DNA of 13,564 nt from Methylococcaceae bacterium (GCA_020048335.1 JAIFMS010000027.1:1-13564); one strand, 5' to 3'; shown: positions 13,150 through 13,455, counted from the first letter of the stretch. The notes: generated by a model not told the origin, from the letters alone. Numbers and translations: made by a program.

Positions 13150-13455
13150 GTCTTAATTCCTTCTAAACAGGGCAAACAAATCCCCCCGCTTACGCTTCCC
13201 CCCTTTAAAAAGGGGGGTTAGGGGGGATTTATCCCTTCTAAACAGGGAAGCCATTCAAACATAACAGACATCATGACTATGTTTGGTTACAAATTGTCTT
13301 AATCCCTTCTAAACAGGGAAGCCATTCAAACATGACAAAATCTAATAAGGTAGCAATAATAATGTCTTAATCCCTTCTAAACAGGGCAGCCATTCAAACG
13401 GATAGACCATGACGGGACAGTCTTTACCAAGGGTCTTAATCCCTTCTAAACAGGG
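13150..13455 (+). CRISPR. Short CRISPR-like array: three intact 36-nt repeats (GTCTTAATCCCTTCTAAACAGGGAAGCCATTCAAAC), spacers of 35, 32 and 33 nt, and degenerate copies at both ends
   Basis: Repeats lie at 13225-13260 (5' end altered), 13296-13331 and 13364-13399 (one mismatch). The spacers are 13261-13295, 13332-13363 and 13400-13432. Degenerate or truncated copies of the 23-nt core GTCTTAATCCCTTCTAAACAGGG occur at 13150-13172 (one mismatch, 3' part diverged) and 13433-13455 (3' part replaced). The repeat contains a small TCCCT/AGGGA hairpin. No cas genes are present within the window. Confidence 0.5.
13178..13230. repeat. Nested G/C-rich palindrome (a hairpin within a hairpin) in otherwise AT-rich DNA
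   Basis: aaatcccccc (13178-13187) pairs with ggggggattt (13221-13230). An inner hairpin cccccc(13198-13203)-tttaaaaa-gggggg(13212-13217) sits inside it. It lies 64 nt downstream of the ROCO stop and overlaps the first copies of the repeat array. No U-tract immediately follows, so an intrinsic-terminator call is uncertain. Confidence 0.5.

What the first reader, a model, noticed from the sequence alone, without database searches (positions are those of the whole stretch)
13150..13455. Orphan mini-CRISPR-like array immediately downstream of the ROCO gene
Three exact or near-exact 36-nt repeats are separated by unique 32-35-nt spacers, with degenerate copies at both ends. That geometry is CRISPR-like, yet there are no cas genes within 13 kb upstream, and the array abuts the end of a convergent gene. 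Decay at both ends suggests an eroding orphan array or remnant. The spacers (ATAACAGACATCATGACTATGTTTGGTTACAAATT; ATGACAAAATCTAATAAGGTAGCAATAATAAT; GGATAGACCATGACGGGACAGTCTTTACCAAGGG) could identify past invaders.
Basis: seen in the sequence. Interest (0 to 1): 0.55.

Follow-up and report, generated by a model that had tools for sequence, protein, structure and literature searches.

The report
Outermost mini-array of type III-A CRISPR locus
The repeats are a genuine small CRISPR array, but it is not orphaned: it is the last of at least seven mini-arrays belonging to a complete type III-A CRISPR-Cas system that begins about 5 kb beyond the end of the window.

Summary
Five copies of a 36-nt repeat lie at 13150-13468: three are full, and the two end copies are altered. 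They are separated by unique spacers of 35, 32 and 33 nt. No shuffle of the window reproduced this.

The "orphan, eroding remnant" reading does not hold. The window's own metagenome contig and a 99.98%-identical 19.6-kb contig continue past the window end. They run through brnTA, four sibling mini-arrays and cargo genes into cas6 and a full cas10-csm2-csm3-csm4-csm5 operon. The cas6 stop lies 4.9 kb past the window end.

The array reads on the window's minus strand as GTTTGAATGGCTTCCCTGTTTAGAAGGGATTAAGAC, a Cas6-type hairpin followed by an 8-nt AUUAAGAC tag.

The two "decayed" ends are conserved module features shared by the sibling arrays:
- The promoter-proximal end is a recurrent fusion of the start of the leader to the repeat core.
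- The distal end is a conserved G6/C6 palindromic pseudo-spacer between two degenerate repeats.

The same repeat also flanks an RT-cas1-cas2 module on another contig. Sixty distinct spacers were collected, and none matched a known phage or plasmid.

This is an ordinary kind of element in an unusually fragmented, cargo-interleaved locus, probably from a Crenothrix-like methanotroph.

The parts
13476..13505 (-). Putative promoter at the start of the mini-array module. The -35-like TTGACC is at 13505-13500 and the -10-like CATTCT at 13481-13476, with 18-nt spacing.
   Evidence: The two hexamers and their 17-18-nt spacing are conserved upstream of 11 distinct arrays in 9 contigs, while the bases between them vary. 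The consensus scanner did not flag it because the -10 is weak. Promoter function is inferred.
13433..13468 (-). First, promoter-proximal unit, a leader-repeat fusion. On the minus strand it reads CCATGCAAACGCG + CCCTGTTTAGAAGGGATTAAGAC. The hairpin and 8-nt tag are intact, and the 5' 13 nt are replaced by leader-start sequence.
   Evidence: The same fusion is seen in sibling arrays M3 and M4 and in L018, L022 and L023. L013 (long leader) and L018 (short leader) share near-identical upstream sequence (57 of the 62 nt shown).
13400..13432 (-). Spacer, 33 nt. crRNA sense: CCTTGGTAAAGACTGTCCCGTCATGGTCTATCC.
   Evidence: Unique among 60 spacers. No match in phages, plasmids or IMG/VR.
13364..13399 (-). 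Full 36-nt repeat with one substitution.
13332..13363 (-). Spacer, 32 nt. crRNA sense: ATTATTATTGCTACCTTATTAGATTTTGTCAT.
13296..13331 (-). Full consensus 36-nt repeat: GTTTGAATGGCTTCCCTGTTTAGAAGGGATTAAGAC.
   Evidence: A 5-bp hairpin with a 7-nt loop is predicted.
13261..13295 (-). Spacer, 35 nt. crRNA sense: AATTTGTAACCAAACATAGTCATGATGTCTGTTAT.
13225..13260 (-). Penultimate repeat (R*). The hairpin is intact. The 3' tag is changed to ATAAATCC and runs into the palindrome.
13178..13230 (.). Conserved nested G6/C6 palindrome. The outer arms are 13178-13187 and 13221-13230. The inner stem is 13198-13203 and 13212-13217. It fills the last pseudo-spacer slot (13186-13224).
   Evidence: It occurs at array ends only, in 7 of 27 fetched loci, and aligns across 7 distinct mini-arrays. 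The surrounding 136-nt stretch (13140-13275) folds at -51.5 kcal/mol, z = -3.7.
13150..13185 (-). Terminal degenerate repeat (R**): GGGGATTTGTTTG + CCCTGTTTAGAAGGAATTAAGAC.
13510..13564 (-). 3' end of a 92-aa BrnA/CopG-like antitoxin gene. Its partner brnT lies just beyond the window. It is on the same strand as the array and immediately upstream of it.
   Evidence: Gene calls on L006. Pfam gives a weak CopG_antitoxin match and a BrnT_toxin match for the neighbouring gene.

Best explanation
The feature is a bona fide CRISPR mini-array of four repeat-spacer units. Three carry real spacers and one carries a conserved pseudo-spacer. It is the outermost of five mini-arrays downstream of cas6 in a type III-A (Csm) locus. 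Two more mini-arrays lie upstream of cas10.

It is read on the window's minus strand. The likely sequence of events is:
1. Transcription starts at a conserved promoter-like element just after the brnA stop codon, or reads through from brnTA.
2. Cas6 cuts each repeat at the 3' base of the CCCUGUUUAGAAGGG hairpin.
3. This gives three crRNAs with the 8-nt 5' tag AUUAAGAC.
4. The crRNAs load into the Csm complex and guide it to complementary transcripts.
5. Cas10 has a GGDD cyclase motif and no recognisable HD motif. It would then make cyclic oligoadenylate, which is sensed by Csx23 and degraded by Csx16/Crn2. Both genes sit between sibling arrays.

The altered first unit lacks the leader-repeat junction and the 5' end of repeat 1. 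The array can therefore probably still be expressed and processed, but no longer takes up new spacers at that position.

Shown: the anatomy, the physical linkage to the cas genes, the subtype, and the conservation of the module ends. Inferred: transcription, processing, loss of spacer uptake, and signalling.
For: Linkage to cas genes:
- The window's own contig (L006) matches the joined contig at 99.98% over 15,024 nt, including 2.2 kb beyond the window. L020 matches window 13046-13564 at 100%.
- On that contig Cas10/Csm1 scores 598.8 bits against a cut-off of 170, and Csm2, Csm3, Csm4 and Csm5 are all above the NCBIfam cut-offs. Cas6 matches Pfam PF10040 at 6.8e-18.

Orientation on the minus strand:
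- The repeats are on the same strand as the cas operon.
- The RT-cas1-cas2 module lies immediately upstream of the long-leader end of an array in L008.
- Intrinsic terminators follow sibling arrays M2-M4 in that direction.
- Across species, the conserved part of the repeat is the hairpin plus ATTAAGAC.

Spacers behave as real spacers:
- 60 distinct spacers were collected, with none shared outside copies of the same DNA stretch (same-strain contigs).
- The arrays upstream of brnTA carry different spacers in strains that are ~80% identical.

The ends are conserved, not decayed.

Signalling: Cas10 GGDD at residues 581-584. Csx23 and Csx16 match in PADLOC, and the Csx16 protein matches DUF1874 structures in the PDB. 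A Crn2 in a Crenothrix polyspora type III locus is described in 10.1101/778746.
Against: - No protospacer was found for any of 13 spacers of this locus in 50,697 phage or 72,556 plasmid records. None was found for the three window spacers (22-23-mers) in IMG/VR.
- The array is identical in all four contigs that carry it, so no spacer turnover is seen at this particular array.
- The -10-like hexamer is weak and was not called by the scanner.
- No cas1/cas2 lies in the 32.6 kb reconstructed around it. The adaptation module with this repeat is on a separate contig from another sample.
- The repeat is below threshold for every Rfam CRISPR-DR family. The best is DR54 at 22 bits against a gathering score of 39.
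- There are no expression data.
Confidence: 0.85

Rival explanations
1. Origin hypothesis, compatible with the main explanation. Each promoter-mini-array-terminator module and its neighbouring cargo entered the locus when a plasmid-like element carrying a mini-array of the host repeat type recombined with the host array through the 36-nt repeats. On this view the window's array is the array half left by the last such event, and the locus acts as a cargo-capturing platform.
For: - Unrelated cargo genes are each bounded by the same two junctions: the distal end (R*-palindrome-R**, plus a terminator in some cases) on one side and the promoter/leader start on the other. Homology starts only a few bases upstream of the -35.
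- In related strains the same slots hold a Rep_3 replication initiator and the start of a ParA gene. A Tn3 transposase with a ParA gene lies next to a mini-array in L018.
- The cargo here is mostly addiction-type toxin-antitoxin pairs.
- Cargo differs between strains at the cas6-proximal slot: a PIN toxin-antitoxin pair here and Rep_3 in L025.
Against: - No circular element carrying such an array was recovered, and no contig has terminal overlaps.
- Some arrays are inverted relative to cas6, which simple repeat-repeat integration does not produce.
- Tandem duplication of array modules followed by insertions would give a similar picture.
- The whole locus could itself be plasmid-borne.
Confidence: 0.25
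2. An orphan, decaying CRISPR remnant with no cognate cas genes and no function.
For: - There is no cas gene in the 13.5-kb window.
- Both end repeats depart from the consensus.
- The array is invariant across samples.
- The truncated leader suggests that spacer uptake has been lost.
Against: - cas6 and the csm operon lie 4.9 kb beyond the window end on the same contig.
- The hairpin and tag of every spacer-bearing repeat are intact.
- The end structures are conserved across 7 mini-arrays and several strains rather than randomly decayed.
Confidence: 0.05
3. The distal unit (R*, conserved palindromic pseudo-spacer, R**) is a crRNA-like regulatory RNA of the CreA / cr-like RNA kind, or a dedicated terminator or insulator for each mini-array, rather than an inert ancestral trailer spacer.
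For: - It consists of two divergent repeats around a conserved non-spacer sequence, kept in 7 mini-arrays and in ~80%-identical strains.
- It has strong predicted structure.
- Mini-arrays that regulate toxin-antitoxin cargo in CRISPR loci are described for type I systems (10.1101/2023.03.03.530964).
Against: - No complementary target was found anywhere in the 32.6-kb locus or the other loci, apart from its own copies.
- The sequence is self-complementary, which is poor for a guide.
- The 8-nt tag preceding it is degenerate.
- M4 has lost it and still keeps the downstream terminator.
- Conservation is equally explained if it is the oldest trailer-end unit, inherited by duplicated modules.
Confidence: 0.12
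4. A dispersed REP/MITE-like intergenic repeat that only mimics CRISPR geometry.
For: A G/C-rich palindrome is embedded in the array. One isolated copy of the 21-mer occurs in a cyanobacterial genome and one in a viral contig.
Against: - Across 185,579 species genomes and the metagenome collection, nearly all hits are regularly spaced arrays (~67-72 nt period) with unique spacers, several next to cas genes.
- The palindrome never occurs outside array ends.
Confidence: 0.01

Closest known systems
Type III-A (Csm) CRISPR-Cas loci with Cas6-processed arrays, such as those of Staphylococcus epidermidis, Mycobacterium tuberculosis and Thermus thermophilus (own knowledge)
   Same: - cas10-csm2-csm3-csm4-csm5 plus cas6.
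- 36-nt repeat with a small hairpin followed by an 8-nt tag.
- Spacers of 31-36 nt.
- GGDD cyclase motif and cyclic-oligoadenylate accessory genes.
   Different: - The CRISPR memory is split into at least seven mini-arrays of 1-4 real spacers each. Each has its own promoter-like start and its own conserved end.
- The mini-arrays are interleaved with toxin-antitoxin and accessory genes.
- Cas10 lacks a recognisable HD motif.
- There is no cas1/cas2 in the 32.6 kb.
Type III loci of Crenothrix polyspora and Methylovulum carrying crn2, drawn in Athukoralage et al. (10.1101/778746, Extended Data Fig. 8)
   Same: - The same group of methanotrophs carries this repeat family.
- A DUF1874 (Csx16/Crn2) gene sits among CRISPRs in a type III locus.
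   Different: That paper concerns the ring nuclease. Judging from the text passages retrieved, it does not describe the array architecture, the leader fusion or the palindromic end. Identity of this locus with the published one was not tested.
Orphan or isolated CRISPR arrays with no cas genes in the genome (own knowledge)
   Same: It is short, with degenerate end repeats and no cas gene in the immediate 13 kb on one side.
   Different: Cognate cas6 and csm genes lie within 5 kb on the other side, and the same repeat occurs next to RT-cas1-cas2.
Regulatory mini-arrays and cr-like RNAs (CreA; Shmakov et al. 10.1101/2023.03.03.530964)
   Same: A mini-array sits next to toxin-antitoxin cargo inside a CRISPR-Cas locus. 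The distal unit has two divergent repeats around a conserved sequence.
   Different: - Those cases are mainly type I and V-A, and their spacers are partially complementary to a promoter.
- No target was found here.
- The three real spacers look like ordinary unique spacers.
Mini-CRISPR arrays carried by plasmids and viruses (PMC9071438; PMC6858448)
   Same: Short arrays of host-type repeats without adjacent adaptation genes. In related contigs, Rep_3, ParA and Tn3 genes lie next to such arrays.
   Different: In this window the array is embedded in a full host-type effector locus. A mobile-element origin is only inferred.

Membership tests
CRISPR array | Near-identical direct repeats of about 23-50 nt at a regular period | tested here: met
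   36-nt repeat with a 68-71-nt period. There are three full and two partial copies, and no chance matches in 200 shuffles.
CRISPR array | Unique spacers of similar length that are not shared with other loci | tested here: met
   Spacers of 35, 32 and 33 nt, unique among 60 distinct spacers. The fourth slot is a shared palindrome and is not a spacer.
CRISPR array | The same repeat is physically associated with cas genes | tested here: met
   cas6 and the csm operon are on the same contig 4.9 kb away. RT-cas1-cas2-cas2 lies next to an identical repeat in L008. cas2 lies next to a variant repeat in Crenothrix sp. D3.
CRISPR array | A leader with a promoter on one side and degenerate terminal repeat(s) on the other | tested here: inconclusive
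   A conserved TTGACY-N17-18-CATTCT block and the leader start are present, but the ~130-nt AT-rich leader body is missing here. The terminal repeats are degenerate. Promoter activity was not measured.
CRISPR array | Spacers match mobile genetic elements | tested here: inconclusive
   No match in the phage or plasmid collections, and no exact 22-23-mer match in IMG/VR. This is common for environmental taxa.
CRISPR array | Transcription and processing into crRNAs | not testable with these tools
   There are no RNA data. Only the hairpin and tag are predicted.
Type III-A (Csm) system | Cas10/Csm1 together with Csm2, Csm3, Csm4 and Csm5 | tested here: met
   All five are above the NCBIfam curated cut-offs: TIGR02578 at 598.8 bits, TIGR01870, TIGR02582, TIGR01903 and TIGR01899.
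Orphan CRISPR array | No cognate cas genes nearby or in the genome | tested here: not met
   A complete effector operon and cas6 lie on the same contig.
REP/MITE-like dispersed repeat | Copies scattered singly in intergenic regions at many loci | tested here: not met
   Hits in the genome and metagenome collections are arrays with unique spacers.
CreA-type / cr-like regulatory mini-array | Spacer partially complementary to a promoter of cas or cargo genes | tested here: inconclusive
   No match of 20 nt or more for any spacer or the pseudo-spacer elsewhere in the locus. Short seed-level complementarity cannot be told apart from chance.

The most novel reading that the evidence does not exclude
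The locus is a cargo-capturing CRISPR platform. Small plasmid-like elements carrying a promoter-mini-array-terminator module of the host's repeat type integrate into the host array by repeat-repeat recombination. Each event deposits its cargo (toxin-antitoxin pairs, Rep_3/ParA, a ring nuclease with its effector) between array fragments. A recurrent deletion between the inverted 11-mers in the leader and repeat 1 then freezes each fragment against further spacer uptake while leaving it expressed.
Probability: 0.2. Interest if true: 0.6.

Novelty: new member of a known kind. Interest (0 to 1): 0.3.

Why it matters
For the scan, the main value is corrective. An apparent orphan array at a window edge turned out to belong to a complete type III-A system just outside the window. 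Its "decay" turned out to be conserved module structure.

Three features may interest CRISPR specialists if they hold up:
- The immune memory is split into many separately promoted and terminated mini-arrays, interleaved with toxin-antitoxin and cyclic-oligoadenylate accessory genes.
- The same leader-repeat fusion recurs at different arrays and probably blocks spacer uptake.
- Plasmid replication and partition genes sit in equivalent slots in related strains, which hints that arrays act as recombination sites for mobile elements.

None of this changes the known mechanism of type III immunity.

Tried and rejected
- Rfam at gathering threshold found nothing in the window. At a permissive E-value only sub-threshold CRISPR-DR54 and DR32 hits appeared on opposite strands, which does not help with subtype or orientation.
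- Thirteen concatenated spacers from this locus found no phage match. The only plasmid hit was a spurious Staphylococcus match spanning spacer junctions.
- Exact 22-23-mers of the three window spacers found nothing in IMG/VR.
- The spacer self-target search within all fetched DNA was negative.
- I tested whether the small Rep_3-plus-array contigs are circular. None has terminal overlaps.
- I considered that window 1-2066 was a decayed PAS-kinase pseudogene because no ORF was listed. Rejected: it is the 3' part of a 1625-aa gene that runs off the window.
- All three window spacers contain GTCAT, which suggested targeting of start-codon regions. Rejected as probable chance: only 4 of 60 spacers overall contain it.
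- A literature search for accession JFJP01 found nothing, so the organism is inferred only from where the repeat family occurs.

Full report
**Observation**

Reading 12900-13564 and running the repeat finders confirms a 68-71-nt periodic structure. The 23-mer GTCTTAATCCCTTCTAAACAGGG, allowing up to 3 mismatches, occurs five times, at 13150, 13225, 13296, 13364 and 13433. It occurs nowhere else in the window and in none of 200 shuffles.

As 36-nt units:
- The copies at 13296-13331 and 13364-13399 are full.
- The copy at 13225-13260 has a degenerate first 8 nt.
- The copies at 13150-13185 and 13433-13468 keep only the first ~23-25 nt.

The real spacers are 35, 32 and 33 nt.

**Surroundings in the window**

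The window encodes the following:
- A CHASE-PAS hybrid histidine kinase.
- A protein with a major-vault-protein shoulder domain.
- A HAD hydrolase.
- A NUDIX hydrolase.
- An LRR-Roc-COR (ROCO) protein ending at 13114.

There is no cas gene and no Rfam hit at gathering threshold. A minus-strand gene ends at 13510.

**The repeat elsewhere**

A scan of one genome per species found the 21-nt core in three methanotroph genomes: Crenothrix sp. D3, a Methylovulum MAG and an uncultured Methylococcaceae MAG. In these it occurs at 69-70-nt spacing, with species-specific 3' (plus-strand) thirds of the repeat. One isolated copy also occurs in a cyanobacterial genome.

In Crenothrix sp. D3 the three-repeat array sits between cas2 and brnT-brnA, followed by a Cas_NE0113 gene.

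The metagenome scan returned 19 stretches. Almost all are arrays with the identical 36-mer and unique spacers.

**The window is cut just before the cas genes**

- An exact-protein look-up of the ROCO protein returned the window's own 29-kb contig, L006. It continues past the window through a 92-aa antitoxin-like gene, brnT, a second mini-array, an NTP_transf_8 gene and a third mini-array.
- A 19.6-kb contig (L021 followed by L020) overlaps window 13046-13564 at 100%. It matches L006 at 99.98% over 15,024 nt.
- On that contig, reading the strand that is the window's minus strand, the order is:
  1. Two mini-arrays in inverted orientation around a DUF3368/UPF0175 pair (PDC-S70 in PADLOC).
  2. 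cas10/csm1, csm2, csm3, csm4 and csm5, all above NCBIfam cut-offs.
  3. An Rpn-family PD-(D/E)XK gene.
  4. cas6 (Pfam CRISPR_Cas6).
  5. Mini-array M1.
  6. A PIN toxin plus antitoxin.
  7. M2.
  8. csx16/crn2-like and csx23 on the other strand.
  9. M3.
  10. NTP_transf_8.
  11. M4.
  12. brnT-brnA.
  13. M5, which is the window's array.
  14. The convergent ROCO gene.
- The cas6 stop is 4,885 nt beyond the window end and 4,981 nt from the array.

The array is therefore not orphan.

**Orientation**

Four lines of evidence agree that the array is read on the window's minus strand:
- On the cas-gene strand the repeat reads GTTTGAATGGCTTCCCTGTTTAGAAGGGATTAAGAC.
- The part conserved between species is the 3' 25 nt, that is the CCCTGTTTAGAAGGG hairpin plus ATTAAGAC. 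This is the layout expected of Cas6-processed repeats that leave an 8-nt 5' tag (established knowledge of type I and III crRNA processing).
- In L008, the order cas2, cas2, cas1, reverse transcriptase, ~200-nt AT-rich leader, array gives the same direction.
- Intrinsic terminators follow M2, M3 and M4 in that direction.

**The two "decayed" ends are conserved structures**

- *Promoter-proximal end.* Every array, whether its leader is long or short, is preceded by TTGACY, 17-18 variable nt, CATTCT, about 7 nt, then CCATTCAAACG.
  - In long-leader arrays (M1, L009, L011, L013, L025) about 130 AT-rich nt and GCRCAGG follow before repeat 1.
  - In short-leader arrays (M3, M4, M5, L018, L022, L023) CCATTCAAACG is joined directly to the repeat core TTCCCTG...
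  - CCATTCAAAC is the inverse complement of the repeat's first 10 nt. The short form therefore equals a deletion of the leader body plus the first 11 nt of repeat 1.
  - L013 (long) and L018 (short) share near-identical upstream sequence (57 of the 62 nt shown), as do L009/L011 and L023. The change has therefore happened at equivalent positions more than once.
  - I infer that the block is a promoter (conserved hexamers, variable spacer). I also infer that short-leader arrays, including the window's, are expressed but have lost the substrate for leader-proximal spacer integration.
- *Distal end.* R* (tag altered), a 39-41-nt G6/C6 nested palindrome, then R**. This aligns across seven mini-arrays. 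It is found only at array ends and sits in a stretch predicted to fold strongly. The simplest reading is an ancestral trailer-end unit inherited by all copies of the module. A terminator or regulatory role is possible but not shown.

**Are the spacers real?**

- Sixty distinct spacers were collected, and none is shared outside copies of the same DNA stretch.
- The arrays upstream of brnTA in strains that are ~80% identical (L026, L010) carry different spacers from M4. The family therefore turns over.
- M5 itself is identical in all four contigs that carry it and is absent downstream of brnTA in L026 and L010.
- No protospacer was found.
- The crRNA-sense spacers are slightly pyrimidine-rich, and CAT outnumbers ATG. 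This is a weak hint that guides are antisense to coding strands, as type III targeting requires.

**Mechanism**

The mechanism I commit to is the standard type III-A pathway, carried out by this mini-array as set out in the best explanation.
- Cas10 carries GGDD at residues 581-584, but no HD motif was found in its first 120 residues.
- The locus encodes Csx23 and a DUF1874 Csx16/Crn2-type protein. DUF1874 proteins are cA4 ring nucleases, and a Crenothrix polyspora Crn2 in a type III locus is reported (10.1101/778746).

Signalling-based immunity is therefore likely.

**Architecture and origin**

- The repeated module runs from a few bases upstream of the -35 to R** (plus a terminator in M2-M4). 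It is sharply bounded and separates unrelated cargo.
- In related strains a Rep_3 replication initiator and the start of a ParA gene occupy equivalent slots (L025, L011, L023, L013).
- L018 has Tn3 tnpA, a resolvase-like gene and ParA beside a short-leader array.

This fits integration of mini-array-bearing plasmid-like elements by recombination between repeats. However, no circular form was found, and the inverted arrays need extra steps. I rate this at about 0.2-0.25.

**Comparison with known systems and verdict**

The feature passes the structural and cas-association tests for a CRISPR array, and the linked system passes the type III-A test. It fails the definitions of an orphan array and of a REP/MITE repeat. 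Mini-arrays next to toxin-antitoxin cargo have been described mainly for type I systems as regulators, and no regulatory target was found here.

The verdict is a new member of a known kind, in a notably fragmented locus, and the "orphan" label was an artefact of the window boundary. The organism is probably a Crenothrix-like member of the Methylococcales. This is inferred from where the repeat family occurs and was not tested directly.

Noticed in passing
L027 5589-5624 (+ strand), IMG/VR contig UViG_3300044826_000309: A single CRISPR-repeat-like 36-mer, GTTTTAGTCATTACCCTGTTTAGAAGGGATTAAGAC, lies in a 44.5-kb viral contig. Its 3' 23 nt (hairpin plus AUUAAGAC tag) are identical to the window repeat. 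There is no second copy in 10 kb. It overlaps the last codons of a 160-aa ORF on the other strand, and a DHH phosphoesterase gene lies 2.3 kb away. It could be a viral solitary repeat unit or RNA anti-CRISPR aimed at this Cas6/Csm system.
   Followed up: partly
L020 2021-2774 (minus strand), about 3 kb beyond the window end: A csx23 (135 aa) and csx16/crn2-like DUF1874 (105 aa) gene pair sits between mini-arrays M2 and M3. This is a likely cA4 effector plus ring nuclease. The linked Cas10 has GGDD but no recognisable HD motif.
   Followed up: partly
L025, L011, L023, L013, L018 (related metagenome contigs): Rep_3 plasmid initiator, ParA and Tn3 transposase genes lie directly between or beside mini-arrays of the same repeat, in the slots that hold toxin-antitoxin genes in the window's strain. 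L025 reads cas6 end, leader, 5 repeats, Rep_3, leader, 6 repeats, ParA start.
   Followed up: partly
L008 263-2799 (minus strand): Two cas2 genes, cas1 and a separate reverse-transcriptase ORF lie directly upstream of a long leader and an array with the identical repeat. This is the likely adaptation module for this repeat family, found on a contig from a different sample.
   Followed up: partly
window 6567-6646 and 9446-9525: An 80-nt direct repeat at 86% identity. The 3' end of the HAD hydrolase gene is duplicated in the intergenic region between the histidine kinase gene and the vault-like gene.
   Followed up: no
window 6918-9362 (+): An 814-aa bacterial protein with major-vault-protein shoulder and Vault_3 repeat domains. 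This is an uncommon domain set in bacteria.
   Followed up: no
window 1-2042 (minus strand): PAS-domain-like DNA repeats with no listed ORF. This is the 3' part of a 1625-aa multi-PAS protein that runs off the window edge, not a pseudogene.
   Followed up: yes
L001 3788-4328 (Crenothrix sp. D3): Clusters of ~26-nt repeats in opposite orientations (TACTCACATTAACTGCGAATG...) lie just upstream of a lone cas2, where cas1 would be expected. This may be a small inverted-repeat mobile element disrupting the adaptation module.
   Followed up: no
window 13261-13432: All three spacers contain GTCAT in crRNA sense, which is ATGAC in the target. Only 4 of 60 spacers of this repeat family do, so this is probably chance.
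   Followed up: yes
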